From: Deltaproteobacteria bacterium
GTDB taxonomy: Bacteria; Myxococcota_A; Polyangia; JAAYKL01
Assembly: GCA_030595125.1 (NCBI GenBank)
Contig: JAUVDV010000021.1
Span: 5,338-69,337, forward strand
Length of the DNA: 64,000 nt
Reading direction: 5' to 3'
Both the position numbers and the translations under genes were made by a program. Positions 3,837 to 63,993 of the stretch are shown here, one piece after another (positions within the stretch are counted from its first letter, which is position 1; each line of letters starts with the position of its first letter). The notes beneath the pieces are model-generated. The model searched no databases, was not told the DNA's origin, and was given only the letters and a program-made list of their open reading frames with translations.

Positions 3837-4536
3837 GATTGGAAAAGAATTATTGTGGGGTGCGCTGTTATGCGCGGGTCTGATCGCGGCTGTGCCGTAT
3901 TTCACGGCCTGTGATGGCGGCGATGGTAGAGATAGTTCGGGTGATTCGGACGCCGACGCCGACAGTGGAACTGACACGGATACGGAATCGGATACGGAAT
4001 CGGATACGACACCCGTGTGCCCCGACTACGATTGGGGCCCGGCAAGCGGATTGACCCTCAACGAGAATATTGGGAACTGGACCTTCAACGGATACTTCGA
4101 TGAGAACGCCAACTGGGTGGTCGATCCGGAGGAGGAGGTGGAGAAAACCTTCACGATGGAGGAGATCGCCTGCTATTCTGGCGCCCAGTCGCTGGTCATA
4201 CTGCTGGATGACTTGTCGTGACCATATTGCCCTGATTGGTTCAATCAGTTTGCCCAGGTTTACGCAGAGCTATTCGCCGAAGACAACGGGGTTGTCCTCT
4301 TCGCCGTGACCTCCGGGATCGGCGCCAATTCCCCGGCCATGAACCTTGTAGCCGAGCAGGCGCGCAAGCATTTCCCGGGCGCCTATTTCACAAACACCAG
4401 GCTCCTGACCCTGACCGGCTCGGGCGCAGTTCCTTTCGGCGCCGTCATCGATCTGGAGACTCTCGAGGCCATCGAGATAGGGCCCACCAGCCCGTATAGT
4501 ATTCTCCAGGCGGTCAAGGCGGCCAACGCCAATTAG
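3837..4536 (+). CDS. TlpA/redoxin-like thiol:disulfide oxidoreductase lipoprotein, probable selenoprotein (in-frame UGA at 4219-4221)
   Basis: ORFs 3787..4221 and 4306..4536 are in the same frame, separated by a single TGA. Read-through gives ...SLVILLDDLS-U-PYCPDWFNQFAQVYAELFAEDNGVVLFAV..., matching the redoxin pattern (vvLdFWASWCGPCr..P.l..ly..y...gv.vlgv) with U replacing the first Cys of CxxC. N-terminus is a lipoprotein signal (LLCAGLIAAVPYFTAC) plus a TD-repeat linker. Confidence 0.55.
4229..4253 (+). promoter_or_regulatory. bSECIS-like hairpin downstream of UGA
   Basis: 10 nt after TGA: 6-bp perfect stem ctgatt/aatcag (4232-4237 / 4243-4248) with apical loop GGUUC, plus a 2-bp lower stem. 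Loop G lies ~20 nt from the UGA, within the bacterial SECIS spacing range. Confidence 0.45.
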
Positions 4537-4599
4537 ATAGCTAATCCTCTATCCGCTACACTTTACCTCCAGTAAATCTTTCGACCGACCTCGCACCGC

Positions 4600-4760: not shown

Positions 4761-4790
4761 TCGTGGATGGACGAGACGCTATTTTGACCC

Positions 4791-5555
4791 CTACAGGCCG
4801 AAGCACTCCCAGTCCGAGCCCATGGATGGGGTTGTCTGGCACTCGTTGTCCGAGTTGCAACCGGTGTACAGGCACTCGTTTGAAACGCAGTTGTAATTGT
4901 CCGCGTCATAGGCAGCGCCGCCGCCGCCACCGCAGTCCGCCGGTGTAGTGCAGGGGGCAGCGCAGTACGCGTAACCCGATCCGCCGGGATCCTGGCAGGT
5001 GTAGCCCGAAACCAGCTGATCGCATTCCGAGTTGTTGTTGCACCCTGTGTAGACGCACCCGTTTGAGTTGCAGTCGTAATTGTCCGCGTCGTAGGCCGCC
5101 GAGCCCAGATCGCAGTCGGCCGAGGTGCTGCAGGGTGGCAGGCAGCCGGGGATTCCCCATCCGGAATCAACGCAGACGTAGTTCATGCTGACAAAGACCA
5201 GATCGCATTCGGCGCTGGAGTTGCATCCGGTGTATTCGCAGAAACCGTCGGAGTTGCAGTTGTAGTTGTCGGCATCGGTTATTGCGTTGGAGGTTGCGGG
5301 GACGCAGTTTGCGGCCGTCAAGCAGGTTTGTGCACAGTAGGGGTTATCGGTGTCGGAGTCGGTGTCCGAGTCTGTGTCCGAGTCTGTGTCCGAGTCCGTG
5401 TCCGAGTCTGTGTCCGAGTCACTGTCGGAATCGCTATCGGAATCGCTATCGGAATCGGAACTGCTGTCTCCGGCGCCGTCGGTCTGACAGCCGAAGAAGA
5501 TCAGAGCCGTGGTCATGGAGAATGCGAGGATTCCCAAGATTGTTATCGTCTTCAT
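4791..5555 (-). CDS. secreted lipoprotein with (S/T-D)n linker and four Cys-rich repeats
   Basis: Signal/lipobox MKTITILGILAFSMTTALIFFGC, then SDSDSD...TDSDTD, then four copies of ~AADC..AYDADNY(N/D)C.SNGC.YTGCN..SEC. Start at MKTIT (5555) avoids overlap with the upstream hydrolase. Confidence 0.6.
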   Translation of the reverse strand: MKTITILGILAFSMTTALIFFGCQTDGAGDSSSDSDSDSDSDSDSDSDTDSDTDSDTDSDTDSDTDSDTDNPYCAQTCLTAANCVPATSNAITDADNYNCNSDGFCEYTGCNSSAECDLVFVSMNYVCVDSGWGIPGCLPPCSTSADCDLGSAAYDADNYDCNSNGCVYTGCNNNSECDQLVSGYTCQDPGGSGYAYCAAPCTTPADCGGGGGAAYDADNYNCVSNECLYTGCNSDNECQTTPSMGSDWECFGL

Positions 5556-5560
5556 TTCGA

Positions 5561-8006: not shown

Positions 8007-9971
8007 ATGAAGAAGAAAACCCTGTTAATTTTGCTGTTCGTTTGTTCGATGGGCGTTGGGGCCGTTGCTTGCTCGAAGAGTCACGGCAACGACGATCCGG
8101 ACGGCGGAGACGCATCGACGGATACTGACACGGGCACGGATACTGACACGGATACGGGGGAGGAGTGGTGTCCGAAACTGGAGACTTCCTGCGAGGCGCC
8201 GGAAGAACTGGAGGTCTGTGATGTCGTCAAGCTGGGCGCGCCTAGGTTGATCTTCCCGCTGTCGGGCAGGCACATCAGGGATCGACGACCGCAGATTATC
8301 TGGGAGGAGGCTGACGGCGCAACGCAATACCGGCTGGAGATCGCCCGGGACCGCCAGTTTACAGATGTTGTTTATCGCTCTGCCGATAACGAGCCGTACC
8401 CAGGATACGACGACCGGCTGCATCACATCGTGAGCTGCGACCTCGACTGCGGTGTTCACTTCTTTCGCGTCAAGTCTGTGACCTCGCCCGAGTGCGAGTC
8501 GGGAGCGTCATCGTACACGTGGGAGATGTTTGTAGGCATGGCCCCCGGCGACCTCGACCGCGACGGCGTGCCGGACATTATGTACTGGAAGATCATCGAA
8601 CCCGGAGGGGAGATGCAGCCGTACCTTGTTCAGGGCTGGGCATTCTTCGACCTGGACGAGAAAGGCGGGCAGGTTGCTGAAGCGGAGAAGGTCGTGGAGT
8701 TCGAGGTTGAGGGCAGCACAATCGTGCTCAAGGGTTCTACATATCAAGGAGATGTAAACGGAGATGCCTCTACAGATGTTAGCGTGGAAATTATTTTCCT
8801 GGATGCGGCGTATGAATTTGAAACCGCAATAATTGAAACGTATGTGTTTAGCCAATTGCGTTCGGGAGTTTTACAAGGAAAGAATGATGCTATTGGATTG
8901 TTTCAAGGAAGTGTAGGACAACTTTACAATACTTTGTACTCAAACAGATATTCGGACGTCAACGGTGACGGCTATTCAGACATAGCGATTTCATTTTACG
9001 AAGATTATGGAGACACTGGATTCACAGACAAATTGTTGATTTTCTATGGGACTACTGAGACCGTTTCGGTTTTGGACTTGTCAACCGCCGACGTAGTCAT
9101 TCCGTGCCCCATAGGATGCGACTCGGATACAAACTTTGGCAGGCCGGCTAGCCAGGTAGACATCAACGGCGACGGTTTTGCAGACTTGTTCTCAGCATTG
9201 GTGGAATATTCATCCGGTATTTTCGACGCGGGATTATCACACAGCGCGATTATCTTCGGCGATGAGAATTTGCAATCGCAAGTAGATGTGATGACAGAGG
9301 GAGCCATTATTTCATCCCCTCAGTATTCGATCATCTCTGGCGTTTGGGATCTTGGGGATTCTGTATTTCTCGGAAGTGGAGCCGTCAATCCAATGGGTGA
9401 CATTGATTTTGACGGCTATCCTGAGTTGGGCGGGTACCTGCTCGATGCATATGACACAACACAATCTCCACTTGTGGAGACCGGCGGGTGGGTGGTTTTC
9501 GATGACTTTTTCGGATCAGGCCAGCATATGTTACCGGACGTGATGGATACTATTATCGTGGCAGATTTTGACACATACATTGACTATTCAAACACAGAAA
9601 CTATTAGTTTTAATCATCCTTCTGGAGATGTCGATGGGGATGGCATTGATGATTTCATTTTGCTAACAGGACAGGCAAACTCGGGTTCTCCCACTTATCC
9701 GGGACGATATTTCTATCTGTATGGTGAAGAAGACTGGGATGATTTCATCCCTTTGTCTACCATTTCTGCAAATGAGGTTATTATCCCAATCGATGCTTTT
9801 TGCTTGGTAACAACCGACATTGATGGTGACGGAATAGCAGAGTCTATTGGGGCGAGTACATCAGGGAATCACACTGTACAGCTTTCCGCATCTGGGGAAA
9901 CAGTTGAACTTAACTGGGACTGGTCGGATGCCGTCGATTTCTACGGGCCGGTAATTCCAGAAATTTACTAA
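8007..9971 (+). CDS. secreted lipoprotein with TD-repeat linker, FN3-like region and FG-GAP/VCBS-type Asp-rich repeats
   Basis: MKKKTLLILLFVCSMGVGAVAC lipobox; DASTDTDTGTDTDTDTGEE linker; repeated DVNGDGYSDIAI / DINGDGFADLF / DVDGDGIDDFIL / DIDGDGIAESIG calcium-binding-like loops. Confidence 0.7.
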   Translation: MKKKTLLILLFVCSMGVGAVACSKSHGNDDPDGGDASTDTDTGTDTDTDTGEEWCPKLETSCEAPEELEVCDVVKLGAPRLIFPLSGRHIRDRRPQIIWEEADGATQYRLEIARDRQFTDVVYRSADNEPYPGYDDRLHHIVSCDLDCGVHFFRVKSVTSPECESGASSYTWEMFVGMAPGDLDRDGVPDIMYWKIIEPGGEMQPYLVQGWAFFDLDEKGGQVAEAEKVVEFEVEGSTIVLKGSTYQGDVNGDASTDVSVEIIFLDAAYEFETAIIETYVFSQLRSGVLQGKNDAIGLFQGSVGQLYNTLYSNRYSDVNGDGYSDIAISFYEDYGDTGFTDKLLIFYGTTETVSVLDLSTADVVIPCPIGCDSDTNFGRPASQVDINGDGFADLFSALVEYSSGIFDAGLSHSAIIFGDENLQSQVDVMTEGAIISSPQYSIISGVWDLGDSVFLGSGAVNPMGDIDFDGYPELGGYLLDAYDTTQSPLVETGGWVVFDDFFGSGQHMLPDVMDTIIVADFDTYIDYSNTETISFNHPSGDVDGDGIDDFILLTGQANSGSPTYPGRYFYLYGEEDWDDFIPLSTISANEVIIPIDAFCLVTTDIDGDGIAESIGASTSGNHTVQLSASGETVELNWDWSDAVDFYGPVIPEIY

Positions 9972-25067: not shown

Positions 25068-25931
25068 ATGAAATGTCTTATTATTCTGGTGTTGACGGCT
25101 GTCATTGCAGGTTTGATACCGGCGTGCGGCGGCGGTGATGGGGGTTACGGCGTTACTGACACAGATACGGACACAGATACAGACTCAGATACCGATACCG
25201 ACGCCGACACTGACACTGACACTGATACAGATACTGACACTGACGCAGATACCGACACTGATACTGATGCTGACGCCGGTATGGATGGAAGCACAGACAC
25301 AGATACAGATACGGATACAGACACAGATACAGATACTGGTACCGACACAGGTACCGATACCGGCACGGATACAGGTACCGACACCGGTACTGACACTGGT
25401 ACGGATACGGACACGGGTTCCGACACGGACACGGGTTCCGACACGGGTACTGATCCATCGGAGGCGTGTCACCCGTCGGCGTACGGGTGGGATCCCGCCT
25501 GGGCGGCGCTGGAAGACCAGGTACTGGTTCTGACCAATATCGAGCGTGCGGCGGGGGCGGATTGCGGGACCGAGGGGGTTTTTCCTGCGGCGGGGCCGGT
25601 CACCATGGAGCCCTATCTGCGGTGCGCGGCCAGGGTTCACAGCCTGGATATGGGCACGACCGACTACTTCAGCCATCTCAGCCCGGGTGGGCCCATCGGC
25701 GACGATCCGTGGGCGCGAGGCGCCAACGCCGGATACACGGGCACAATGGTCGGCGAAAACATCTACGCCGGTTCCTCGACGACCCCCGCGAGCGTTGTGG
25801 CCGGCTGGATGGCCTCGGACGGACACTGCGCCAACATCATGAATGGTACGGCCACCGAGATGGGTGTCGGGTACGCCTACGTGGCCGGTAGCACGTGGGG
25901 GCGGTACTGGACTCAAAATTTTGGATACTGA
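25068..25931 (+). CDS. CAP/SCP/PR-1-like domain lipoprotein with long TD/TG-repeat linker
   Basis: MKCLIILVLTAVIAGLIPAC lipobox; ~100 aa (TD)n; C-terminal CAP-domain motifs HCANIMNG, GVGYAY, YWTQNFG. Confidence 0.7.
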   Translation: MKCLIILVLTAVIAGLIPACGGGDGGYGVTDTDTDTDTDSDTDTDADTDTDTDTDTDTDADTDTDTDADAGMDGSTDTDTDTDTDTDTDTGTDTGTDTGTDTGTDTGTDTGTDTDTGSDTDTGSDTGTDPSEACHPSAYGWDPAWAALEDQVLVLTNIERAAGADCGTEGVFPAAGPVTMEPYLRCAARVHSLDMGTTDYFSHLSPGGPIGDDPWARGANAGYTGTMVGENIYAGSSTTPASVVAGWMASDGHCANIMNGTATEMGVGYAYVAGSTWGRYWTQNFGY

Positions 25932-42402: not shown

Positions 42403-43479
42403 CTAGATCTCGGTGAAGGTGACGCTGAGGGCATTCACGGTGTTTGCCGCGGCCTCGCTTACCACCAGGTAGGCGTAGGAATCCGAGCTGCTAGTTCCGA
42501 GGATCTGCAGCAATTCGGGATTCTCGGCCGATTGTACGCAGGAATTGGCATTGCAGGAATCGACCTCTCGCAGGGTCACGTTGGAGGAAGTGGTCTCGGC
42601 CACACCGACTGATAATCCGGCCGGAATGCGCACCAAGAACCAGATGTCCTCGCCGCCGCCGCCATCGCCGCAGTTGGTCCCTCCCGAGAACGTTCCCGTG
42701 AAGTCGGTCCAGAGACCGCTCCATGTGAGTGGATACGTGCCCACGTAGATGATCTGCTCACATCCCTCGGACAGACAATACATGTAGTTGCTTGACGAGA
42801 CGTATCCGCAGGTGCCGCTGCAACTGAGAACTGACAGCGAACTCGTGGTGCTGTTGCACCAGATCGTCTGGCTCAGATCCTGGGTGCAGCAGCCGTAGTA
42901 CCAGGGGTTGGGAGAGATGGGCGAGAACGCCCAGGCCGCAGCGTCGCAGGCGGATGGGGGCGGTTCGGGACAGCACACGACCTCGGTCTCCACCAATGCA
43001 GTCATTTCACACTGTGACAGCGTCGTATCCGTATCTGTATCTGTATCGGTGTCCGTGCCTGTGTCCGTGCCTGTGTCCGTGTCGGTGTCTGTGTCGGTGC
43101 CTGTGTCGGTGCCTGTATCGGTTCCGGTGTCTGTTCCGGTGTCCGTGCCGGTATCTGTGCCTGTATCCGTGCCGGTGTCCGTGCCGGTATCCGTGCCGGT
43201 GTCTGTTCCGGTATCCGTGCCGGTGTCCGTGCCGGTATCCGTGCCGGTATTTGTGCCCGTGTCGGTATCGGTGTCCGTGTCGGTATCTGTATCGGTGTCC
43301 GCGTCGGTATCCGTATCGGTGTCCGTATCGGTGTCCGCGTCGGTGTCCGTGTCGCCGTCCGTATCGGTGTCTGTGTCGGTTGCTCCTGCATCCATTTTGA
43401 ACGACGGGAGCTCCCCACTACATCCGATCACCAGGAGCCAGACAAAGAAGATGGTGAAAATACGAAAAAAAGCTTTCAT
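42403..43479 (-). CDS. lipoprotein with ~130-aa (TD/TG)n linker and Cys-rich C-terminal domain
   Basis: FFVWLLVIGCSG lipobox; long TDTDTD/TGTDTG run; CCPEPPPSAC...YYGCC. Confidence 0.55.
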   Translation of the reverse strand: MKAFFRIFTIFFVWLLVIGCSGELPSFKMDAGATDTDTDTDGDTDTDADTDTDTDTDTDADTDTDTDTDTDTDTGTNTGTDTGTDTGTDTGTDTGTDTGTDTGTDTGTDTGTDTGTDTGTDTGTDTGTDTDTDTDTGTDTGTDTDTDTDTDTTLSQCEMTALVETEVVCCPEPPPSACDAAAWAFSPISPNPWYYGCCTQDLSQTIWCNSTTSSLSVLSCSGTCGYVSSSNYMYCLSEGCEQIIYVGTYPLTWSGLWTDFTGTFSGGTNCGDGGGGEDIWFLVRIPAGLSVGVAETTSSNVTLREVDSCNANSCVQSAENPELLQILGTSSSDSYAYLVVSEAAANTVNALSVTFTEI

Positions 43480-45056: not shown

Positions 45057-45251
45057 ATGAGCAATCTTGCAAAGGTTTCGATTGTGATGCTGGTGGGAGC
45101 CCTCTTTGCGATTTTTTTCGGGTGTATGTCGAGTGGAACCCGCGATGACATAGAGTGGGAGGATGCGGCCGTCGACAGCGGATCCGATATCGATACTGAT
45201 ACTGATACTGATACGGACACGGATGCCGATGCGGGACCGGATGCCGGGTGA
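45057..45251 (+). CDS. small lipoprotein with TD repeat (possibly N-terminal module of the adjacent same-frame ORF)
   Basis: Lipobox FFGC then DIDTDTDTDTDTDAD; ends at TGA, in frame with ORF 45264..45632. Confidence 0.3.
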   Translation: MSNLAKVSIVMLVGALFAIFFGCMSSGTRDDIEWEDAAVDSGSDIDTDTDTDTDTDADAGPDAG

Positions 45252-45263
45252 TATGGGGGCTAC

Positions 45264-50522: not shown

Positions 50523-51737
50523 CTACGGACAATTAGCCGGAACCGGCGTGCATGTGTCGTTGCGGTTGTCGTGGATATTTATCGTATTGGGCACGTAATC
50601 GAGCTGGTCCAGCAGGTCGCACGTTTCGCAGTCGAAAAGGTTATCGTTGTGCCGGATCCAGATCTCCTTACCCACCGAGGTGATCCCGCCAAGACCATCC
50701 AGGTTGGTAATGGCGGGGCTGCTTGAAATTTCCAACGCCCAACCCACCGAGGTGATCTCGCTCAGGCCGTCAATGTCGGTCAGGGCGTAGTTGTCATCCA
50801 TCCGCAAGCTCCCGGCCACCGAGGTGATCCCGCTCAGCCCGTCAATGTTTTCGAGAACTTCGTTGAAATAGAATTCCAGGCGCCCGACCACCGAGCCGGT
50901 AATGCCGCTCAGCCCGTCAATGTTTGTGAGGGCAAAATTATACCAAATACTCATGTCTCCATCCAGCGAGCCTGTGATGTTGCTCAGGCCGTCAAGGTTG
51001 GTGAGGGCGTAGTTGCATTCAATCCACAAGCCCCCGCCTACCGAGGTGATCCCGCTCAGGCCGTCGAGGTTTGCAAGGACCGGGTTGCCGCCGTCCGGAC
51101 TCATTTCGCCGCTGCTGCCGGAAAAACAGAATCCAATTGTCAAGTTCCCACCCACTGAGGTGATGCCGCTCAGGCCGTCCAGGTTTGTGAGGGCGTCGTT
51201 GCCATCGATGCTCAGGCCCCCTCCAATCGAGCCGGTGATCCCGCTCAGGCCGTCCAGATTGGTGAGGAATCTGTTGTCGCCGATGCTCAGGCCCCCGCCC
51301 ACCGAGGTGATGCCACTCAGACCGTCCAGGCTTGTGAGGGCGTTGTTCCTTGAGATATACAAGCCGCCCACCGAGGTGATGCCACTCAGATCGTCAAGGT
51401 TTGTAAGGCCTGGGTTGCCGCCGCTATAATAACCATCAATTACCAGGCCCCCGCCCACCGAGGTGAGGCAAATCAACTCGCTCAATTCGGTGCACGAAGG
51501 GCACTCGATTGTAAGGTTTCCCGAGATCGATGTGTATCCCGCGAGGGTTGCGACATCAGAATAATTGATTATCTCAAAATCGCCGCTGTACTCTCCCAGG
51601 TTGCACTCGATCGGGCCGGTATCGGTATCGGAGTCGGAGTCAGTGTCGGTCGTCCCACTGTCTCCGATGGACGAAACGTGCGAACAGCCGGCGAAAACCA
51701 GCGCCAGGATCAACAAGAGATATTTGATATCGATCAT
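50523..51737 (-). CDS. secreted lipoprotein with ~12 leucine-rich-like 22-aa repeats (LTNLDGLSGITSVGGxLxIxxN)
   Basis: LALVFAGC lipobox; TDTDSDSDTDTG linker; periodic L..L..L.GL..I..V.G.L.I repeats (receptor-L/LRR_5-like). Confidence 0.65.
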   Translation of the reverse strand: MIDIKYLLLILALVFAGCSHVSSIGDSGTTDTDSDSDTDTGPIECNLGEYSGDFEIINYSDVATLAGYTSISGNLTIECPSCTELSELICLTSVGGGLVIDGYYSGGNPGLTNLDDLSGITSVGGLYISRNNALTSLDGLSGITSVGGGLSIGDNRFLTNLDGLSGITGSIGGGLSIDGNDALTNLDGLSGITSVGGNLTIGFCFSGSSGEMSPDGGNPVLANLDGLSGITSVGGGLWIECNYALTNLDGLSNITGSLDGDMSIWYNFALTNIDGLSGITGSVVGRLEFYFNEVLENIDGLSGITSVAGSLRMDDNYALTDIDGLSEITSVGWALEISSSPAITNLDGLGGITSVGKEIWIRHNDNLFDCETCDLLDQLDYVPNTINIHDNRNDTCTPVPANCP

Positions 51738-54888: not shown

Positions 54889-55707
54889 ATGAAAATACTG
54901 TTTTTGCATTTGTGTCTGGTTGTTCTCGTGACCCTGTCTGTTTCCTGCGCTAAAAGCGTGCTTGAGCCTGGATCGGGCAGCTCCGATTCCGATTCGGACA
55001 GCGATTCCGATTCTGACACCGACACCGACACCGACTCTGACTCCGACACGGACACGGATTCGGACACGGACAGCGACACGGACACCGACACCGACTCCGA
55101 TACGGACACGGACACAGACACCGACACGGATACCGACACAGACACCGATACCGATACCGACACGGGTACGGATACCGGCACCGACACCGGTACGGATACC
55201 GGCACCGACACGGGTACGGATACCGGCACGGGAACGCTGGTCTGCATAGATTTCGATGGTTCATCCGCCCCGAGCACATTCTCTTCGACAACCGCTCTGA
55301 GTACGGCTTATTCGGGCCTCGGTGTGACCTTTTCGGGGCCATCCGTCGGAAGTGGCGGGGCCATTTTGAATGAAGCAGGAGGTTTTGGCGTTTCCGGACA
55401 CAGTTCGCCAAACTTCGTGGCTTTCAATTCGGGCGCGCCTCTTTCGGGCGGAGGAATTCCCATTGGGCCCGAGACGATTCAGTTCACTACACCCGCAACT
55501 TCAGTCAGTGTCTGGGTGGCTGCCAGTAGTGGAGGTACAGTTACGATGACGGCATACAATGGTGTCGGCGGCGTTGTGGACACCGATACAGGCTCGCTTT
55601 CATCCAGCGTAACCGAGTACCAGACGGCCGGAGCAGGAATCGACCATGTTGTTCTTCAGACTACTGTTGCAGTCTGGGTTTTTGACGACCTGTGTTTTGT
55701 CAATTAG
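54889..55707 (+). CDS. lipoprotein with ~100-aa (SD/TD/TG)n linker and C-terminal beta-rich domain
   Basis: MKILFLHLCLVVLVTLSVSC lipobox; SDSDSD...TDTDTD...TGTDTG. Confidence 0.55.
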   Translation: MKILFLHLCLVVLVTLSVSCAKSVLEPGSGSSDSDSDSDSDSDTDTDTDSDSDTDTDSDTDSDTDTDTDSDTDTDTDTDTDTDTDTDTDTDTGTDTGTDTGTDTGTDTGTDTGTGTLVCIDFDGSSAPSTFSSTTALSTAYSGLGVTFSGPSVGSGGAILNEAGGFGVSGHSSPNFVAFNSGAPLSGGGIPIGPETIQFTTPATSVSVWVAASSGGTVTMTAYNGVGGVVDTDTGSLSSSVTEYQTAGAGIDHVVLQTTVAVWVFDDLCFVN

Positions 55708-56924: not shown

Positions 56925-58975
56925 TGCACGGATTTATGGGACGCAGACTCAGGCTGGATATGACCAGGCTAACATACGAGATCGAAGATCTCCCCTCCGA
57001 CTATTACCAAAAATGGATCGGTGGGCGCGGCATGAACTCGGAGGTTGTGTACAACGAGACGTGGCAGGGCATGGATCCGTACGATCCGGCCAACCCGCTG
57101 TGCTTTGTGTGCGGTGCCCTCGGAGGAACCTTCGCGCCGTTGTCGGGCAGGGTAACGGTGAGTACGCGCTCGCCCATGACATGCTCCGTCATGGGGACCG
57201 ATATTCACGGGCACGGCGACACCAACATGGGCGGTTCGTTCGGGCCAATGATGAAGTACGCCGGCTACGATCAGATCATCGTCAAGGGGCGGGCGGACAG
57301 GCCCACATGGGTAGTCGTCAACGACGACAAGGTCGAGTTCCGCAGCGCTCACGGTCTGTGGGGAATGGAGGTCAAGAAGGCCACCCTCAAGATCATGAAA
57401 GAGCTGGACGATCCGGACGTCCGCGTCTCCATTATCGGCCCCGCCGGGGAGAAGATGGTGCGATTCGCGTGCGTCATGAACTCCTTCAGCGCTTCCGGCG
57501 GAAGGACCGGGATGGGTGCGGTGATGGGGTCCAAGAATCTCAAGGCCATCGCGGTCAAGGGTTCGAAACCGGTGACCATCGCGCAGCCCGATGAGTTTAT
57601 CAAGGCGGCCTGGGCGTTGCGCGAGAAAGTTCACGTGTCGCCGTCGGCCATCCGCAGGCGTTACGAGGGGACCATGGACCTGTTCGACGCGGGCAACGAC
57701 ATCGGTATCAGCGCCCACAAGAATTGCTCCACGGGCTACATGAAGGACATCGAGAAGATATTCGGCGGGGTCCAGTGGGCCGATGAGTTCCTGTTTCGGC
57801 GCAAGGCGTGCTGGTCGTGCCCGGTGGCGTGCGGCAGGTACACCTACATAAAGGAAGGCAAGTGGGCGGGCTTCCATTGTGGTGGCCCCGAGATGGAGAG
57901 CGTATGCGCTTTCGGACCGAGAATCGACTCCACGGACGTGGCGGGGGTAAACGTGCTGTGCGGTCAGGCAAACGAGCTGGGCATGGACAGCATCTCTGCG
58001 GGCGCGGCTCTCTCGTGGACCATGGAGGCGTTTGAGAAGGGCTACATCACAGAGAAGGATACGGGTGGAATCAGGCTGGAGTGGGGGGACATCGAGACCT
58101 CCATGAAGGTGCTCGATATGATAGCCCGCAGGGAGGGTTACGGCGATCTACTGGCCGAGGGCAACATTCGCGTGGCCGAGAAGCTCGGCGTGGGCATGGA
58201 TATCGTGCCCCACTGTCGCGGTCTCGAGCATATCAGCGTCGATCCGAGGATCGCGCTGGGGTTCAGCCTGGGATACGCCATGTCCACCCGCGGATCGGAC
58301 CACCTCAAGAACTACTCCTGCCTGGAGTTTCCCGGTTGTGCCCAGAGCCGCGCGTACCAGATCGATGAGATCTTCGACGCCGACGGGGCAAAGAAGTTCT
58401 GGGACAACTTCCCTTCCCAGATGTACGAGATCGACACCAAGCCCGAGTTGTGCACCTGGTCCGAAAAGAACAAGTGCGTGTCCGATCTCGTGGGATGCTG
58501 CTGCCAGGCCATCGGATCGTGGGGAGGCGCCGGAGATTGGAAGGAGGCGTACACCCCCATGTTCCGTTACGCCACGGGTCTCGATCTGAGCGACGAGGAG
58601 ATCTTCCTGGGCGCGGAACGGGTGATCAACATCGAGCGCGCTCACTGGTGCAGGGACGGAAGCGCCCGGCAGGACGACACCCATATCGACCGCTATTTCG
58701 ACGAGGGCGTGGCGGATGGTCCGTACAAGGGGATGAAGCTCGATCGCGATGAATGGGCGTGGGCACAAACCGAGTACTACAAGTTCCACGGATGGGACAG
58801 GGACGGGTTCATCAGTCCTCAGAAGGCCACAGAACTCGGCATCGAGAACATCATTCCCGACATGGAGGTCGGCAAGAAGATCTACAACGCCTGGCTGGAC
58901 GAACACGGCCTTCGGCCCAAACCCAAACCCAAACCCAAGGCCAAACCCAAAGCCAAAAAACGTACCCGCAAGTAG
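56921..58975 (+). CDS. aldehyde:ferredoxin oxidoreductase (tungsten/molybdopterin AOR family) with Lys/Pro-rich C-terminal tail
   Basis: AOR N-terminal domain (YYQKWIGGRGMNSEVVY...GALGGTF), pterin-binding E..H and C-ligand regions, ending RPKPKPKPKAKPKAKKRTRK. Confidence 0.85.
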   Translation: MMHGFMGRRLRLDMTRLTYEIEDLPSDYYQKWIGGRGMNSEVVYNETWQGMDPYDPANPLCFVCGALGGTFAPLSGRVTVSTRSPMTCSVMGTDIHGHGDTNMGGSFGPMMKYAGYDQIIVKGRADRPTWVVVNDDKVEFRSAHGLWGMEVKKATLKIMKELDDPDVRVSIIGPAGEKMVRFACVMNSFSASGGRTGMGAVMGSKNLKAIAVKGSKPVTIAQPDEFIKAAWALREKVHVSPSAIRRRYEGTMDLFDAGNDIGISAHKNCSTGYMKDIEKIFGGVQWADEFLFRRKACWSCPVACGRYTYIKEGKWAGFHCGGPEMESVCAFGPRIDSTDVAGVNVLCGQANELGMDSISAGAALSWTMEAFEKGYITEKDTGGIRLEWGDIETSMKVLDMIARREGYGDLLAEGNIRVAEKLGVGMDIVPHCRGLEHISVDPRIALGFSLGYAMSTRGSDHLKNYSCLEFPGCAQSRAYQIDEIFDADGAKKFWDNFPSQMYEIDTKPELCTWSEKNKCVSDLVGCCCQAIGSWGGAGDWKEAYTPMFRYATGLDLSDEEIFLGAERVINIERAHWCRDGSARQDDTHIDRYFDEGVADGPYKGMKLDRDEWAWAQTEYYKFHGWDRDGFISPQKATELGIENIIPDMEVGKKIYNAWLDEHGLRPKPKPKPKAKPKAKKRTRK

Positions 58976-59094: not shown

Positions 59095-62000
59095 ATGTCT
59101 TCGATTTTCCGAAACACGATGGTCCGGTTGTCCGTGCTCGGGTTGGTGTTGGCGATGGTGGGATGCGCGGACGAAGAGGATGACGGCTCCACTGGCGGCG
59201 GTGCCGTCGGGGGCAGCGCGGTAGTCGACGACCAGGCGCTCGCGGATGCGCCGGACGTGTCGGCGCCGTTCGACATCTCGGCGGTGATCCGCCAGGTGCA
59301 CTTCGCGTTTCGACCCGACGGCGACGGGTTCAAGGGTGGGCACGACACCTACTCGGTACGAGTGGATCGGAAGGGCGCGATCACGGTGACACCGTACATC
59401 GCACAGGAGAACATCGTCGCGGGTGCCCCGGCCACCTTCGAGACCGTGTCCGTGGAACGGCGCCAGGGTCGGCTCGACTTCGTCGCCGCCTCGCCGACGG
59501 GTCGACAGGACGGCGGGCTGGAGATGCCACGCGGCCCGGCGCGGGAGATGCTCAAGAACTCCGAAGAAGGCGTCGAACAGAGCTGGAGCTTCGAGAGCGA
59601 GCCGGCAGGGGACGGCGATCTGACGATACGGGTTCGCGTCACCGGCATGGATTACTCCGACCGAACCGAGCACGGACTTCATTTTCAGGACAGCGGGACC
59701 GGTCTGGGATTCAGGTACGGCAACGCGACCTGGATCGATGCCGAGGGAAACGAAACCCGTGTGATACCGGGGTATCGAAACGGTGAGGTCGTGATGTCGG
59801 TGCCGGCGGAGGTGCTCGCTGTCTCGAGCTATCCGGCAGTGCTGGATCCCGTGATCGGTCCAGAGTTCGGGATGGACCAACCGGTTTATACTCCTACGTA
59901 CTACGATCAAGACTTTCCCAAAATCGGGTCGGACGGGAGCGATTATTTCGTCGTTTGGCGGGACAACCGTGCCAACGACAGGTCGATTATAGGGACGCGA
60001 GTTACTCCGGCGGGAGTGGTTCTCGATCCGTACGGAATCGATATATCGCTGAGCACCCAAGGCCAGAATTCCCCTGCCGTCGCCTTCGGCGGAACTCACT
60101 ACCTGGTGGTCTGGAGGGATTCGCGCAATCCGAGTTATGACATCTACGGCGCCCGGGTCGATACCAACGGTGTCGTGCTCGACGAGGAAGGTATTCCGAT
60201 CTCGACGGCGCCGGGCCATCAGGACTTACCTCGTATCGCCTACGACGGCTCCAGGTTCCTGGTGGTCTGGGAAGACCAGCGAGACTACGCGACTACCCAG
60301 GATGACATCTACGGCGCCCGGGTCGATAATGCCGGTGTCGTGCTGGACACCGGCGGGATCGCCATATCGACGGACACAGACTATCAGCGGTCCCCGGCAG
60401 TCTCGTGCGGCGGGACCAGCTGCCTGGTCGTCTGGAATGACAACCGCGCCGACTCCAATTCGAGCTGGGATATCTATGGGGCCAGGGTGACCACCACTGG
60501 AACCGTCCTCGACCCCGCAGCCTTCTCCATCTGCGAGCATGTGCACGACCAAGACAGCCCAACCGTTGCGTTCGACGGGACCAACTACCTGGTGGTGTGG
60601 AGGAGAAACAGCACCGTGTATGGGGCCAGGGTGGCCCCGGACGCCAGCGTGTTGGATAGCGATGGTTTCGTCATCTCGACGCTGTCGACCGGCTATTATC
60701 CAGCCGTCGCGTTCTCAGGAGTTGTCTATCTGGTGGTCTGGGTTTGGGGCGGTGATATTCGCGGAGTCCGGGTCAGCACCGGCGGCAGCGTGCTCGACGC
60801 GGCAGATATCGTCATCTCTGCGGCGCCCAGCACCGAGCTATATCCGGAGGTCGCGTCGGCCGGAGGCGGTTTCCTGGTGGTCTGGCAAGACGACGACGGC
60901 TTCTGGCCCACCGGGCTCGACATTTTTGGAGCGCGGGTCGGCGCCGACGGCGCCGTCCTCGATCCGACGCCGATCGAGATCGCACAGGGTGCCAACGACC
61001 AGGAGAGCCATGCGGTGGCCTACGGCAGCGACATGTATCTGGTCGTCTGGAGGGACAACCGTAACTACCCGGTCACCGACGACGATATCTACGGCGTTCG
61101 CGTCGACAGCTCCGGGACCGTGCTCGATCCCACGGGAATCGCGATCTCGACTGCGGCCGACGAGCAGGACAGTCCTGCGGTGGCCTTCGACGGGGTAAAC
61201 TTCCTGGTCGTCTGGGACGACAATCGGGTCGGATACCAGGTCAAGATATACGGGACCCTGGTCGGCACTGACGGGGTCGTCGACGAGGTGGACGGCTTCT
61301 ACATTGCACACTACAGCAGCGTCTTTGATGCCGACTGTTTCAACCCTGACGTGGCGTTCGACGGAAACGTTTACCTGGCTGTCTGGCAGGTAGAGAGTGC
61401 TCTAGTGTATGGCAGGACGATCAGCACCGAAGGCGCGCTTCTCGGAGAGCATTTCCCTATCAGCGATAGCAGCGGCGACGACCAGTGCAATCCCAGGGTC
61501 GCGGCCAACGGCGCGCAGTTCCTGGTCGTCTGGGATGACGAGCGCAACTTCTCGACCAACGGCTGGGACATATACGGCGCCAGGGTGAGTTCGATCGGCG
61601 GCGTCCTCGACACCGTCCCGATTCAGATCTCGGACGTCATGAGCGATCAACTGTCACCATCGATCGCCGCCGACGGAACCAACTACATGGTCGTCTGGGA
61701 CGACAAGCGCTTCTCGGCCAACCCCGACATCTACGCCGGCAGGCTCGACACCAGCGGCAACGTTCTGGACGGTATCGGGGTCGCCATCGCGGCCACCGTC
61801 GGATCACAGACGTCGCCCACCGTCGCATTCGACGGGACGGATTTTGTCATCGCCTGGCAGGACGGACGCAACTACAATACCACCGGGTACGATATCTGGG
61901 GGGCCCGAGTCGATTCGTCGCTGACGGTCCTCGATCCGGCGGGGATCGAGCTCTCGGCGGAGAACTTCATGGAGTACCATCCCGAGCTCGCCTCCAACGG

Positions 62001-63993
62001 GGCGGGCACCTCGCTGCTCACATACAAACGCCATCTGGCGGACCTATTCAACCAACGCGTCAGGGCCAGGTTCTTCGACAACCAGAGCAACCTTCCCAAC
62101 GGCGATTCGTGCTCGGGCGACGGGATGTGCCTCAACGCCCACTGCGTCGACGGGGTCTGCTGCGACATCGAGTGCGGGGGCAACGATTTCACCGACTGCC
62201 AGGCGTGTTCGATCGCGACTGGAGCGGCGGTCGACGGCGTCTGCGCCACCCTGGCGATCACGCACGAATGCCGTCCCTCCACCGGAGACTGCGATGTAGC
62301 AGACTATTGCGACGGGACGAACACGGACTGCCCGGCCGATGCGATCCTGGAAAGCGGAGAGAGTTGCGACGATAGCGACGATTGCACCCACACCGACGGC
62401 TGCCAGTCCGGGGGCGTCTGCCAGGGGACGGCGTACACCTGCACCTCCGAGGATTGCCTGGCGCGCGCCTGCGATGGTGTCGGTGGCTGCAACGATACGC
62501 CGCTACCCGATACCACTATTTGCGGCACCGCGGCCTGCACGGCGGATTACTGCGTCGGTTTGACGTGGCATGATTATGGCGCCACCTGCGACCTGTACTG
62601 CGACGGGTTCGGAGCATGCGAATCCACCTGCACCTGCACGCCTGCAGACACGGTCTGTGACGTGGGATCGAGCAACGAGTGTTGCGCTGCCCAGTGCGAC
62701 GACGTGGCCGGCTGCTCGACAACGGCCGGGGCATGCGCCGACACCTGCGGCACCACGCTGCTCGCGGTCGGACGCACCTGCGCGGGGTGCGGCGCCAATA
62801 ACGCCGACGGCACGTGCGGCGGCGGCACGGCGTACGACTGCAACGGTACCGTTCACTCTCTGTGTCAGGAGATCTCGTGCGGCGGCACGACCTACTACTG
62901 CACCGAGGTGGGGAGCGTCTGGCAGTGGCGCACGGCAACAGCGTGCGACGACGGCGACGATTGCACGTTCACCGATATCTGCAGCGCAAGCGCCTGTAGC
63001 GGCACCGCGTACACCTGCACCTCCGAGGACTGCCTGACGCGGACCTGCGATGGCGTCGGCGGCTGCAACGTGACGCCGCTACCCGATACCACCATCTGCG
63101 GCACTGCGGCCTGTACGGCGGATTACTGCGTCGGTTTGACGTGGCACGACTATGGCGCCACCTGCGACCTGTACTGCGATGGGTTCGGCACATGCGAATC
63201 CACCTGTACCTGCACACCGGCAGACACGATCTGCGACGTGGGATCGAGCAACGAATGTTGCACGGCCCAGTGCGACGACGTGGCCGGTTGTTCGACAGCG
63301 GCCGGGGCCTGCGCTGACACCTGCGACCCCGCGCAGCTCTCGGTCGGAAGCACCTGCGCGGGGTGCGGCGCCAACAACGCCGACGGCACCTGCGGCAGCG
63401 GCGCGGTGCTGGAGTGCAGCGGAACAACCCACACCGAGTGCGAGTCGGCATCGTGTGACTCCACGACCTACTACTGCACCAACCTTGTATCCACCTGGGA
63501 GTGGCGCGATGCGCCGGACTGTGACGATGGCGATCCGTTTACCTACGACGACGTCTGCGGCGACGGAGGTGTCTGCGCGGGTGAGGTGGACGCCGGGACG
63601 GACACAGACACGGACACGGACACAGACACGGATACAGACACCGATACAGATACGGACACTGACACCGACACAGACACCGATTCCGACACAGATACCGATT
63701 CCGATACGGACACCGATTCCGATACAGATTCCGACGGCTGCACCAATGGCGCCACCCGGTGCGCCGAGGACATCGTCCAGCATTGTGAGAACGGAACCTG
63801 GAACGACTGGAGCGACTGCGTCGTCCAGGGGATGACCTGTGTCATGATCGATGGTGTGGCCCAGTGTGTAGGCGACGACGGCAGCGGCAAGGACTCGGAC
63901 TCCTGCGGATGCCGTGCGATCGGTGGTGGTTCTTGGGAAGGCAAGAGCTTCAACCTGATTACCTTACTGCTGCTGGTGTTGTTAGGAAACTGA
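59095..63993 (+). CDS. giant (1632-aa) secreted lipoprotein: >=13 copies of a ~47-aa DIYGARVD...VLD...PAVAFDG.NYLVVW repeat, two tandem ~195-aa Cys-rich modules, TD linker, MYXO-CTERM-like tail
   Basis: MSSIFRNTMVRLSVLGLVLAMVGC lipobox with SD ggagg upstream; periodic repeat; Cys-rich CDDxDDCT.TD.C...TAYTCTSEDC modules; C-terminal ...CGCRAIGGGSWEGKSFNLITLLLLVLLGN. Confidence 0.7.
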   Translation: MSSIFRNTMVRLSVLGLVLAMVGCADEEDDGSTGGGAVGGSAVVDDQALADAPDVSAPFDISAVIRQVHFAFRPDGDGFKGGHDTYSVRVDRKGAITVTPYIAQENIVAGAPATFETVSVERRQGRLDFVAASPTGRQDGGLEMPRGPAREMLKNSEEGVEQSWSFESEPAGDGDLTIRVRVTGMDYSDRTEHGLHFQDSGTGLGFRYGNATWIDAEGNETRVIPGYRNGEVVMSVPAEVLAVSSYPAVLDPVIGPEFGMDQPVYTPTYYDQDFPKIGSDGSDYFVVWRDNRANDRSIIGTRVTPAGVVLDPYGIDISLSTQGQNSPAVAFGGTHYLVVWRDSRNPSYDIYGARVDTNGVVLDEEGIPISTAPGHQDLPRIAYDGSRFLVVWEDQRDYATTQDDIYGARVDNAGVVLDTGGIAISTDTDYQRSPAVSCGGTSCLVVWNDNRADSNSSWDIYGARVTTTGTVLDPAAFSICEHVHDQDSPTVAFDGTNYLVVWRRNSTVYGARVAPDASVLDSDGFVISTLSTGYYPAVAFSGVVYLVVWVWGGDIRGVRVSTGGSVLDAADIVISAAPSTELYPEVASAGGGFLVVWQDDDGFWPTGLDIFGARVGADGAVLDPTPIEIAQGANDQESHAVAYGSDMYLVVWRDNRNYPVTDDDIYGVRVDSSGTVLDPTGIAISTAADEQDSPAVAFDGVNFLVVWDDNRVGYQVKIYGTLVGTDGVVDEVDGFYIAHYSSVFDADCFNPDVAFDGNVYLAVWQVESALVYGRTISTEGALLGEHFPISDSSGDDQCNPRVAANGAQFLVVWDDERNFSTNGWDIYGARVSSIGGVLDTVPIQISDVMSDQLSPSIAADGTNYMVVWDDKRFSANPDIYAGRLDTSGNVLDGIGVAIAATVGSQTSPTVAFDGTDFVIAWQDGRNYNTTGYDIWGARVDSSLTVLDPAGIELSAENFMEYHPELASNGAGTSLLTYKRHLADLFNQRVRARFFDNQSNLPNGDSCSGDGMCLNAHCVDGVCCDIECGGNDFTDCQACSIATGAAVDGVCATLAITHECRPSTGDCDVADYCDGTNTDCPADAILESGESCDDSDDCTHTDGCQSGGVCQGTAYTCTSEDCLARACDGVGGCNDTPLPDTTICGTAACTADYCVGLTWHDYGATCDLYCDGFGACESTCTCTPADTVCDVGSSNECCAAQCDDVAGCSTTAGACADTCGTTLLAVGRTCAGCGANNADGTCGGGTAYDCNGTVHSLCQEISCGGTTYYCTEVGSVWQWRTATACDDGDDCTFTDICSASACSGTAYTCTSEDCLTRTCDGVGGCNVTPLPDTTICGTAACTADYCVGLTWHDYGATCDLYCDGFGTCESTCTCTPADTICDVGSSNECCTAQCDDVAGCSTAAGACADTCDPAQLSVGSTCAGCGANNADGTCGSGAVLECSGTTHTECESASCDSTTYYCTNLVSTWEWRDAPDCDDGDPFTYDDVCGDGGVCAGEVDAGTDTDTDTDTDTDTDTDTDTDTDTDTDTDSDTDTDSDTDTDSDTDSDGCTNGATRCAEDIVQHCENGTWNDWSDCVVQGMTCVMIDGVAQCVGDDGSGKDSDSCGCRAIGGGSWEGKSFNLITLLLLVLLGN

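What the first reader, a model, noticed from the sequence alone, without database searches (positions are those of the whole stretch)
3837..63720. Lineage-specific family of at least 10 lipoproteins sharing a post-lipobox (Thr/Ser/Gly-Asp)n linker encoded by (GACACN)n microsatellites
Genes at 3837, 4791-5555, 8007, 25068, 38058, 42403-43479, 45057, 50523-51737, 54889 and 59095 all start with a lipoprotein signal followed by 10-130 residues of TD/SD/GD dipeptide repeats before unrelated functional domains (redoxin, Cys-rich, FG-GAP, CAP, TSP3-vWA, LRR, propeller-like). The linker is encoded by near-perfect hexanucleotide tracts (gacacggacacc...) that are prime substrates for slipped-strand length variation. 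They also generate long stop-free antisense ORFs (SVSVSV/PVSV/CRCR) that mislead ORF callers. The repeated acidic linker may be a surface-display spacer or a Ca2+/metal-binding stalk; its density of 10 genes in 64 kb is striking.
Basis: seen in the sequence. Interest (0 to 1): 0.65.

Follow-up and report, generated by a model that had tools for sequence, protein, structure and literature searches.

The report
Acidic Thr-Asp tethers on lipoproteins
Ten genes in this window encode membrane-anchored lipoproteins carrying long, floppy, negatively charged Thr-Asp repeat spacers, a local flavour of the disordered leash that related bacteria put on most such proteins, so it is real and striking but not a new kind of system.

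Summary
Nine genes encode a lipoprotein signal with a lipobox Cys, then a 9-23 residue Gly/Ser/Asp pre-linker, then an 8-118 residue TD/SD/GD/TG dipeptide tract, then an unrelated folded domain. The tenth (g10) is a lipoprotein, but its TD tract lies about 1,480 residues downstream, as an interdomain linker.

Three parts of the interpretation need correcting.
- This is not a homologous family. CAP and DUF7478 homologues from Myxococcota-like organisms are nearly all lipoproteins with 16-110 residue low-complexity tethers of many flavours (TD, SD, GE, EP, PDADPNA, G/S).
- The DNA is not a near-perfect hexamer microsatellite. Perfect period-6 runs are at most 21 nt, Asp codon use matches the background, and the detectable periodicity is 12-36 nt.
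- All units are multiples of three, so frameshift phase variation is excluded.

Tract length and register do change quickly between strains.

Best explanation: an intrinsically disordered, polyanionic spacer between the lipid anchor and binding or adhesive cargo. It is probably also relevant to lipoprotein trafficking.

One locus (g6) keeps the same promoter, signal peptide and tether as two relatives but carries a different cargo. This is either cargo shuffling at the tract or an assembly collapse.

Verdict: new variant of a known kind, moderate interest.

The parts
3835..4536 (+). g1. Lipoprotein (Cys26) with a 35-residue acidic tether (GDSDADADSGTDTDTESDTESDT). The cargo has an in-frame TGA at 4219-4221 inside the motif LLDDLS-U-PYC.
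   Evidence: no Pfam or PDB sequence match for the cargo
4791..5555 (-). g2. Lipoprotein (Cys23) with a 38-residue SD/TD tract (5346-5459), followed by the Cys-rich DUF7478 domain.
   Evidence: (PF24290, 3e-40)
8007..9971 (+). g3. Lipoprotein (Cys22) with a 14-residue TD/TG tract (8118-8159), followed by FG-GAP repeats.
   Evidence: the exact protein is in the public collection on a 71,140-nt NCBI contig
25068..25931 (+). g4. Lipoprotein (Cys20) with a 100-residue TD/TG tract (25155-25454), followed by a CAP/YkwD domain.
38058..40478 (+). g5. Lipoprotein (Cys20) with a 60-residue GD/TD/TG tract (38160-38339), followed by TSP3 repeats and a vWA-like domain.
42403..43479 (-). g6. Lipoprotein (Cys20) with a 118-residue TD/TG tract (43027-43380), followed by a rare Cys-rich cargo. 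The cargo differs from the one at the syntenic locus in two relatives.
45057..45251 (+). g7. A 64-residue mini-lipoprotein (Cys23) that is essentially only a tether (TD tract 45195-45230). Relatives have 62 residues.
50523..51737 (-). g8. Lipoprotein (Cys18) with a 14-residue TD/SD tract (51615-51656), followed by roughly 25-residue LTNLDGLSGITSVGG-type repeats.
   Evidence: no Pfam or PDB sequence match
54889..55707 (+). g9. Lipoprotein (Cys20) with an 84-residue SD/TD/TG tract (54982-55233), followed by a beta-sandwich domain resembling carbohydrate-binding modules.
   Evidence: (pLDDT about 50 across the tether, 98 across the domain)
59095..63993 (+). g10. A 1,632-residue lipoprotein (Cys24). 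Its 46-residue TD/SD tract (63598-63735) is an interdomain linker near the C-terminus, ahead of a small Cys-rich module and an SCGC motif plus hydrophobic tail.

Best explanation
The TD/SD/GD/TG tracts are intrinsically disordered, strongly polyanionic tethers. Each joins the lipidated N-terminal Cys to a folded extracytoplasmic cargo domain. The cargos are mostly disulfide-rich and look like binding or adhesion modules.

The alternation of Asp with a small hydroxylated residue or Gly, with almost no Lys, Arg or hydrophobic residues, should give an extended, soluble chain that does not stick to anionic membrane surfaces. Contour lengths are about 9-49 nm, calculated as tether length times 0.36 nm per residue. 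That holds the cargo away from the membrane.

By analogy with E. coli, the disordered segment after the lipid anchor probably also helps handling by the lipoprotein trafficking machinery.

Selection acts on composition and disorder, not on sequence or length. Tracts gain and lose in-frame units of 6-36 nt and drift out of register between strains. The TD flavour is one dialect of a tether that Myxococcota-like bacteria place on most lipoproteins, and the same material is reused as an interdomain linker.

Shown here: the anatomy, composition, predicted disorder, positional rule, fast turnover, and the generality across homologues. Inferred: the spacer function, the cellular location, and the trafficking role.
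For: Anatomy.
- Nine of ten tracts begin 9-23 residues after the lipobox Cys.
- Tethers are 26-135 residues, net charge -6 to -43, with 0-2 basic residues.
- In the AlphaFold2 model of g9, residues 22-115 have no secondary structure and pLDDT of about 46-54, next to a pLDDT 98 domain.

Generality.
- Most of the 120 listed homologues of the g4 CAP domain are lipoproteins with 16-104 residue linkers. These are mostly acidic or G/S/T-rich, almost free of Lys/Arg, and of many flavours. The closest full-length homologue, at 69% identity, uses (GE)n.
- 90 of the 120 listed homologues of g2's DUF7478 domain are lipoproteins. Their linkers have a median length of 51 residues (range 0-110) and 1.7% Lys+Arg.
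- In a public-genome scan for (TD)10-coding DNA, 51 of 65 tract ORFs from MAGs labelled Myxococcota or Deltaproteobacteria have a lipobox Cys within 60 residues upstream (median 16). In other taxa the figure is 2 of 59.

Selection on the protein rather than the DNA.
- Asp codons are GAC 0.59 / GAT 0.41 in tracts and 0.61 / 0.39 in background genes.
- Perfect period-6 runs are at most 21 nt.
- Between two strains, the g6 signal-peptide DNA is 97% identical and the tract 74%. Third codon positions are 42% identical, yet the TD reading is kept.

Other support.
- The same material serves as an interdomain linker in g10 and in the 666- and 640-residue proteins of L002 and L122.
- None of the nine has Lys at +2, the residue that marks inner-membrane lipoproteins in Myxococcus xanthus (PMC3222651).
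- About half of E. coli outer-membrane lipoproteins have a disordered N-terminal linker longer than 22 residues, and it is needed for optimal Lol trafficking (bioRxiv 10.1101/2021.01.05.425367).
Against: - There is no experimental or localisation evidence. Whether these proteins sit in the periplasm or on the cell surface is unknown.
- The regular alternation of Asp is stricter than a pure spacer needs. That leaves room for cation binding or a modification motif.
- Tract lengths come from short-read MAG assemblies, which break or may collapse at these repeats. Absolute lengths are therefore uncertain.
- Five or six other candidate lipoproteins in the window lack TD tracts. One (1172-2377) has a basic K/G-rich linker instead. 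The tether flavour is not universal even within this genome.
Confidence: 0.7

Rival explanations
1. The tract is a divalent-cation (Ca2+/Mg2+/metal) binding polyanion. The alternating Asp side chains would chelate cations. This could stiffen the stalk, cross-link it to LPS or exopolysaccharide, or buffer ions at the cell surface. It is not exclusive of the spacer reading.
For: - Asp makes up 36-50% of the tracts, in strict alternation.
- In g5 the GD/TD tract runs directly into TSP3 repeats, which are Ca2+-binding by established knowledge of that family.
- The closest MAGs are named CSMAG. I take that to mean cold-seep, but this was not verified.
Against: - No known Ca2+-binding profile matches the tracts themselves.
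- Homologous lipoproteins use non-chelating flavours at the same position, such as G/S-rich or PDADPNA. This argues that acidity is common but cation binding is not required.
- No binding test is possible with these tools.
Confidence: 0.2
2. The tracts are hypermutable contingency loci. Slipped-strand mispairing at the hexanucleotide repeats would switch or tune expression, or vary surface antigens.
For: - Lengths differ between strains.
- There is some excess of identity at 12- and 24-nt lags in g2, g5, g6 and g9, with z of 2-3.9.
- TRF detects period 12-36 arrays with up to 100% matches over short stretches.
Against: - Every unit is a multiple of three, so no frameshift on/off switching is possible.
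- Perfect period-6 runs are only 11-21 nt.
- Adjacent-unit codon identity is at or below the synonymous-shuffle expectation: z = -2.8 for g5 and -2.9 for g6.
- The varying part is a featureless spacer, not an epitope-bearing domain.
Confidence: 0.07
3. The tracts are modification sites forming a mucin-like stalk. Thr or Ser would be O-glycosylated or phosphorylated, as the staphylococcal SD repeats are glycosylated by SdgA/SdgB.
For: - Thr+Ser make up 36-50% of the tracts.
- The tracts score against the SD-repeat region of the Sdr/Clf models.
Against: - No glycosyltransferase or kinase was found among about 50 window ORFs scanned with Pfam.
- The Sdr/Clf scores are at most 54 bits against cut-offs of 999-2500, which reflects composition only.
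- Homologues substitute GE, EP or Gly-rich linkers that lack hydroxyl residues.
Confidence: 0.1
4. The tracts act as recombination joints. Because many genes share near-identical TD-coding DNA, homologous exchange within tracts would swap cargo domains behind a fixed promoter, signal peptide and tether.
For: - At the g6 locus the window, L002 and L122 share flanking synteny at 86-89% nt identity. The signal-peptide and upstream region aligns at 92% mean column identity.
- The segment from the tract to about 10-40 nt past the stop codon is replaced by an unrelated cargo.
- The window's cargo-sulfatase adjacency is reproduced in two independent assemblies: L125 at 100% and L124 at 96%, the latter from another sample.
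- A paralogue of the cargo, 46% identical, sits behind a different signal peptide in L090.
Against: - This is a single case.
- The middle 141 nt of the g6 tract (43193-43333) is bridged only by the MAG contig. Collapse of two tandem TD genes during assembly could mimic a swap.
- The 3' junction lies outside any TD repeat, so a second, unexplained crossover is needed.
Confidence: 0.2
5. The tracts are an artefact of assembly or of reading a non-coding microsatellite in frame.
For: - Short-read contigs break inside the tracts.
- Seven of the ten proteins are not found as exact sequences in the 15-billion-protein collection.
Against: - The tracts are in frame between a signal peptide and Pfam-supported domains.
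- They recur in independent assemblies and samples.
- They recur in hundreds of homologues.
Confidence: 0.02

Closest known systems
Intrinsically disordered N-terminal linkers of Gram-negative outer-membrane lipoproteins (E. coli RcsF, NlpD, Pal; El Rayes et al., bioRxiv 10.1101/2021.01.05.425367)
   Same: - A disordered segment longer than 22 residues immediately follows the lipidated Cys and precedes unrelated folded domains.
- In that study, length and disorder mattered rather than sequence.
- The window's tethers are 26-135 residues and are predicted to be disordered.
   Different: - The tethers here are dipeptide-repeat polyanions, up to about 135 residues long and up to -43 in net charge.
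- They are present on 9 of roughly 16 candidate lipoproteins in 64 kb.
- No trafficking experiment exists for this lineage.
Ser-Asp (SD) repeat region of staphylococcal Sdr/Clf MSCRAMM adhesins
   Same: - An X-Asp dipeptide repeat serves as a stalk between an anchor and a ligand-binding domain.
- It is encoded with mixed synonymous codons in higher-order units rather than as a pure hexamer.
- Its length varies between strains.
- The tracts hit the SD region of these models.
The biology of SD repeats is recalled from established knowledge and was not tested here.
   Different: - The organisms are Gram-positive.
- The repeat is C-terminal, next to an LPXTG wall anchor, not N-terminal next to a lipid anchor.
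- Ser rather than Thr dominates.
- Scores are far below the family cut-offs (at most 54 bits against 999-2500), so there is no homology.
Pro/Thr- or Ser-rich interdomain linkers of secreted glycoside hydrolases, and the tether regions of Borrelia surface lipoproteins (from general knowledge)
   Same: These are low-complexity, fast-evolving, length-variable linkers joining modular extracytoplasmic domains. The TD tract of g10 and the internal tract of the L002/L122 proteins play this interdomain role.
   Different: The composition here is acidic TD rather than PT or ST, and the location is predominantly right after the lipobox.
MYXO-CTERM / myxosortase surface-sorting tag of Myxococcota (PMC11980579)
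   Same: g10 and the subtilase at 52061-54715 end with an SCGC or GCGC motif followed by a hydrophobic stretch. In M. xanthus TraA, a disordered region lies next to the tag.
   Different: There is no Arg-rich tail and no NCBIfam match even at E<=10. The tag is C-terminal and unrelated to the post-lipobox tracts.

Membership tests
Bacterial lipoproteins (Lgt/LspA substrates) | N-terminal signal peptide with a hydrophobic core ending in a lipobox [LVI][ASTVI][GAS]-C | tested here: met
   All ten ORFs show such a sequence, with Cys at residue 18-26. This rests on pattern inspection only. No dedicated predictor was available, and lipidation cannot be tested.
Disordered N-terminal lipoprotein linkers (El Rayes et al.) | More than 22 disordered residues between the lipidated Cys and the first folded domain | tested here: met
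   Tethers are 26-135 residues in g1-g9. For g9, AlphaFold2 gives pLDDT 46-54 and no secondary structure across residues 22-115.
Disordered N-terminal lipoprotein linkers (El Rayes et al.) | Linker required for efficient Lol-dependent transport to the outer membrane | not testable with these tools
   This needs fractionation of linker-deletion variants.
Staphylococcal Sdr/Clf SD-repeat adhesins | Whole-protein match above the NCBIfam cut-off, with an A domain, an SD region and an LPXTG anchor | tested here: not met
   Best scores are 16-54 bits against cut-offs of 999-2500, and only over the repeat region. No LPXTG motif is present at the C-terminus (by inspection).
Phase-variable contingency loci (simple-sequence repeats) | Long perfect tandem repeat whose unit changes shift the reading frame or the promoter spacing | tested here: not met
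   Units are multiples of 3 and lie within coding sequence. Perfect period-6 runs are 11-21 nt. Adjacent-unit identity is not above synonymous shuffles.
Bacteroidota lipoprotein export signal (LES) | K-(D/E)2 or Q-A-(D/E)2 type motif at positions +2 to +5 (motif recalled from the literature, not re-read here) | tested here: not met
   Positions +2..+6 read DGGDG, QTDGA, SKSHG, GGGDG, SDGGG, SGELP, MSSGT, SHVSS and AKSVL.
MYXO-CTERM proteins (for g10 only) | Cys-containing signature motif, then a transmembrane helix, then an Arg-rich tail; match to TIGR03901 | tested here: not met
   An SCGC motif and a hydrophobic stretch are present, but the protein ends ...LLLLVLLGN without Arg. There is no NCBIfam hit at E<=10.
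   The cargo domains belong to different Pfam families or to none. Cargo domains of the ten proteins match only their own relatives in the held loci. Tether flavour varies freely among homologues of a single cargo.

The most novel reading that the evidence does not exclude
The TD-coding tracts may double as portable recombination joints. They are shared by dozens of genes per genome, so cargo domains could be exchanged behind a fixed promoter, signal peptide and tether. That would give these uncultured Myxococcota-like bacteria a cassette system for diversifying their tethered binding proteins. The g6 locus would be the first caught example: the same N-terminus as in two relatives, a different cargo, and both flanks syntenic.
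Probability: 0.15. Interest if true: 0.6.

Novelty: new variant of a known kind. Interest (0 to 1): 0.4.

Why it matters
Disordered linkers behind the lipid anchor have only recently been shown to matter for lipoprotein trafficking, and only in E. coli.

This lineage offers an extreme natural series. Pure polyanionic dipeptide tethers of 26-135 residues sit on more than half of the candidate lipoproteins in the window. The same cargo families carry quite different tether flavours in related organisms. That makes it possible to test directly which property the envelope machinery and the cargo need: length, charge, or simply disorder.

There is also a practical side. The tracts fragment short-read assemblies and generate long antisense ORFs. 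Lipoprotein inventories of such MAGs are therefore likely to be incomplete or mis-called.

Tried and rejected
- Literature search for TD, Thr-Asp or DT repeat terms: nothing relevant found.
- Metagenome scan with a degenerate DNA pattern of the conserved g6 signal-peptide region: 0 hits. No extra strains could be added that way.
- Exact-sequence look-ups of the TD proteins, of alternative starts and of the antisense ORFs. Only g3, g7 and ordinary neighbours are in the collection. The claim that antisense ORFs mislead gene callers could therefore be neither confirmed nor refuted.
- Homology search with the g6 cargo: a single partial hit. No alignment was available for a structure prediction of that domain.
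- Profile and PDB sequence searches for g1 as a redoxin and g8 as LRR: no matches.
- Rfam scan and tRNA scan of the window: nothing found.
- SECIS check for g1: a hairpin sits at the expected distance, but its folding energy is not distinguishable from shuffles, z = -0.6.
- MYXO-CTERM membership for g10 and the subtilase: no HMM hit.
- Comparing g5 linkers with L002. The full-length L002 gene turned out to be a tandem paralogue (82% identity). The true orthologue there is truncated, so it was not used as strain-level evidence.


Full report
**Source of the window**

The window comes from a 71,140-nt NCBI contig. It belongs to an uncultured bacterium whose close relatives are two MAGs labelled 'Deltaproteobacteria bacterium':
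- CSMAG_2956 (GCA_030621515.1; loci L002, L025, L074, L090)
- CSMAG_220 (GCA_030591725.1; loci L122, L101)

Named homologues of two cargo domains come from Myxococcota or from MAGs labelled Myxococcota or Deltaproteobacteria. Examples are Archangium, Nannocystis, Lujinxingia, Polyangiaceae and Kofleriaceae.

GC content is 55-63%. The genes between the lipoproteins are ordinary chromosomal ones: TsaE, a pseudouridine synthase, dihydrolipoyl dehydrogenase, NuoE/F-like and MvhD-containing Fe-S proteins, aldehyde:ferredoxin oxidoreductase, sulfatases, an FGE-sulfatase, a MATE pump and glycerol kinase. The TD genes are therefore scattered through a normal chromosome region, not clustered in an island.

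**Checking the observation**

The DNA pattern (GAYACN)4 occurs 48 times, against 0 in 100 dinucleotide-preserving shuffles.

All ten ORFs open with a hydrophobic signal ending in a lipobox-like motif, with Cys at residue 18-26. In nine of them (g1-g9) a short Gly/Ser/Asp-rich pre-linker of 9-23 residues is followed by the dipeptide tract. The tract is 8-118 residues and the whole tether 26-135 residues. Tethers carry 7-44 acidic residues, 0-2 basic residues and 1-5 hydrophobic residues. In seven of the nine, a Cys follows within a residue or two of the tether's end, which I take to mark the start of the folded domain.

Pfam supports four cargos: DUF7478 (g2), FG-GAP (g3), CAP (g4), and TSP3 with a weak vWA match (g5). 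'Redoxin' (g1), 'LRR' (g8) and 'propeller' (g10) are not supported by any profile or PDB sequence search.

For g9 I built a 56-sequence alignment and predicted the structure. Residues 1-21 form a helix. Residues 22-115 have no secondary structure, with pLDDT of about 46-54. Residues 116-272 form a beta-sandwich at pLDDT 98, whose nearest solved folds are carbohydrate-binding modules and the Bacteroides protein BtuJ.

- g1 starts at 3835 and reads through an in-frame TGA to 4536.
- g7 is a 64-residue protein that is little more than a tether.
- The g10 tract lies about 1,480 residues after the lipobox, between Cys-rich modules.

The window also has five or six candidate lipoproteins without TD tracts. 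These start at 2377(-), 11754(+), 23960(+), 29562(-), possibly 30571(-), and 42272(-). One of them has a basic K/G-rich linker.

**The DNA is not a hexanucleotide microsatellite**

- The longest perfect period-6 run in any tract is 11-21 nt.
- Asp codon use in the tracts (GAC 0.59 / GAT 0.41) equals that of 18 background genes (0.61 / 0.39). Thr codons are more evenly mixed than in the background.
- Against 2,000 synonymous-codon shuffles per tract, identity between adjacent units is not elevated. In g5 and g6 it is significantly depressed (z = -2.8 and -2.9).
- Identity at lags of 4 or 8 codons is elevated in g2, g5, g6 and g9 (z of 2-3.9). TRF likewise reports period 12-36 arrays.

Expansion therefore proceeds in 12-36-nt blocks. 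Every unit is a multiple of three, so frameshift switching cannot occur.

**Variation between strains**

- g7 differs by exactly one 6-nt unit between the window/L123 and L002/L122/L003. It also shows synonymous changes concentrated in the tract.
- The g6 tract is about 118 residues in the window, about 190 in L002 and about 170 in L122.
- Between the window and L123, the g6 signal-peptide DNA is 97% identical and the first 156 nt of the tract 74%. Third codon positions are 42% identical, while the amino acids stay TD.

One caveat applies to all lengths. Short-read contigs regularly end inside these tracts, so absolute lengths in MAGs are uncertain.

**How general is the feature?**

I searched three cargo domains without their tethers.

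- CAP domain (g4). Most of the 120 listed homologues are lipoproteins with a low-complexity linker of 16-104 residues. The linkers are mostly acidic or G/S/T-rich, with Lys+Arg typically 0-5%. Flavours include TD, SD, GE, EP/PE, poly-D and T/S-rich. The closest full-length relative (69% identity) has (GE)n where g4 has (TD)n.
- DUF7478 (g2). 90 of 120 homologues are lipoproteins. Their linkers have a median of 51 residues (range 0-110) and 1.7% Lys+Arg, again in many flavours including non-acidic G/S ones.
- The g9 beta-sandwich. This is a widespread module, with 832 representatives at E<=0.001. It mostly sits behind ordinary signal peptides, and only a couple of homologues show TD-type tethers.

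In MAGs labelled Deltaproteobacteria, Myxococcales, Myxococcota, Polyangia or Nannocystaceae, 51 of 65 tract-bearing ORFs have a lipobox Cys within 60 residues upstream (median 16). In clearly different taxa the figure is 2 of 59. That sample is not exhaustive.

The positional rule therefore holds well beyond this genome. The TD tract is one dialect of a general tether, not the signature of one protein family.

**Mechanism**

The best-supported reading is a disordered polyanionic leash between the lipid anchor and the cargo.

Established work shows that about half of E. coli outer-membrane lipoproteins carry a disordered N-terminal linker longer than 22 residues. [quoted passage not shown] In Myxococcus xanthus, Lys at +2 marks inner-membrane lipoproteins (PMC3222651). 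None of the nine TD lipoproteins has it, which weakly favours an outer-membrane or surface destination.

The cargos are CBM-like, FG-GAP, TSP3/vWA, CAP, Cys-rich modules and LRR-like repeats. They look like binding or adhesion modules, which fits a 'fishing-line' arrangement. These last steps are inference.

Rivals:
- Cation binding is plausible and not exclusive, but it is untested. It is not required by homologues with non-acidic tethers.
- O-glycosylation has no support from gene context.
- Contingency-locus behaviour is contradicted by the DNA analysis.

**The g6 locus**

The window, L002 and L122 are syntenic on both sides of g6, with dihydrolipoyl dehydrogenase upstream and a sulfatase downstream at 86-89% nt identity. 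They share the promoter region, the signal peptide and the pre-linker.

From inside the tract to about 10-40 nt beyond the stop codon, however, the window carries a 207-residue Cys-rich cargo. Both relatives instead carry an unrelated cargo of about 450 residues with its own internal TD linker.

The window's cargo has a 46%-identical paralogue behind a different signal peptide elsewhere in CSMAG_2956 (L090). Two independent assemblies reproduce the window's cargo-sulfatase adjacency. L125 is 100% identical over 39254-43192, and L124, from another sample, is 96% identical over 41956-43013.

Only the middle 141 nt of the tract (43193-43333) is bridged solely by the MAG contig. There are therefore two possibilities: cargo was exchanged at the tract, or two tandem TD genes were collapsed during assembly. 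I give the swap itself slightly better than even odds. As a general diversification mechanism I rate it at about 0.15-0.2.

**Comparison with known systems and verdict**

In function, the tracts resemble three known things: the disordered linkers of proteobacterial lipoproteins, the SD-repeat stalks of staphylococcal adhesins, and the PT/ST linkers of modular secreted enzymes. They are not members of the Sdr/Clf family, since scores are at most 54 bits against cut-offs of 999-2500. They do not fit the Bacteroidota export-signal motif, and they are not contingency loci.

I found no paper describing Thr-Asp tethers on lipoproteins. The search library is incomplete, so this is absence of evidence only.

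The finding is a real and unusually dense example of a compositional variant of a known kind of element. It is of moderate interest, with one sub-observation (the g6 cargo replacement) worth a long-read check.

Noticed in passing
window 4219-4221 (within g1, 3835-4536 +): An in-frame TGA occupies the first position of a CxxC-like motif (LLDDLS-TGA-PYC-PDW), and the frame stays open for 105 more codons. This suggests a selenocysteine-containing, thioredoxin-like lipoprotein. A 7-bp hairpin (CUGAUUG-GUU-CAAUCAG) starts 13 nt downstream, but its folding energy is no better than shuffles.
   Followed up: partly
window 42376-43024 versus L002 6331-7740 and the corresponding segment of L122: The cargo domain of g6 is replaced relative to two syntenic relatives, while the promoter, signal peptide, tether start and downstream sulfatase are conserved. 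The middle 141 nt of the tract is bridged only by the MAG contig.
   Followed up: partly
window 10063-10192 (intergenic, between g3 and the WD40 gene): An array of about eight GTGGAC-containing 16-nt units is followed by 4-5 inverted GTCCAC units. The arms are up to 19 nt long and 89-94% complementary. The function is unknown; it could be a binding-site array.
   Followed up: partly
window 52061-54715 (-) and 63850-63993 (+): The 884-residue subtilase ends ...GDDGCGCDTVGD..., and g10 ends ...SCGCRAIGGG...LLLLVLLGN. Both have a GCGC-type motif plus a hydrophobic stretch, reminiscent of MYXO-CTERM. They lack the Arg-rich tail and have no NCBIfam match at E<=10. g10 would then carry both an N-terminal lipobox and a C-terminal tag.
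   Followed up: partly
window 58916-58957: A (CCCAAA)7 repeat encodes a basic PKPKPK... tail at the C-terminus of the aldehyde:ferredoxin oxidoreductase (56921-58975).
   Followed up: no
window 45249-45266: g7 and the following 122-residue membrane protein (45264-45632) are in the same frame, separated only by one TGA and four codons. Relatives keep the same two-gene arrangement.
   Followed up: no
L002 3-1160 and 1337-3775: CSMAG_2956 carries a tandem duplicate of g5. The copies are 92% and 82% identical to the window protein, which is present once in the window.
   Followed up: partly
window 1172-2377 (-): This lipoprotein has the opposite linker flavour: poly-Gly followed by K/G-rich basic low complexity (KKKGKKKKKGKKGKKGG). 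The same genome therefore uses more than one tether type.
   Followed up: no
whole window: About 16 of roughly 55-60 ORFs look like lipoproteins, which seems an unusually high local density. Separately, seven TD lipoproteins are absent as exact sequences from the 15-billion-protein collection, although neighbours from the same contig are present.
   Followed up: partly
window 50281-50316: A perfect 15-nt tandem repeat (CGAAAAATGGGGTCA x2.4) lies in the intergenic region downstream of g8.
   Followed up: no
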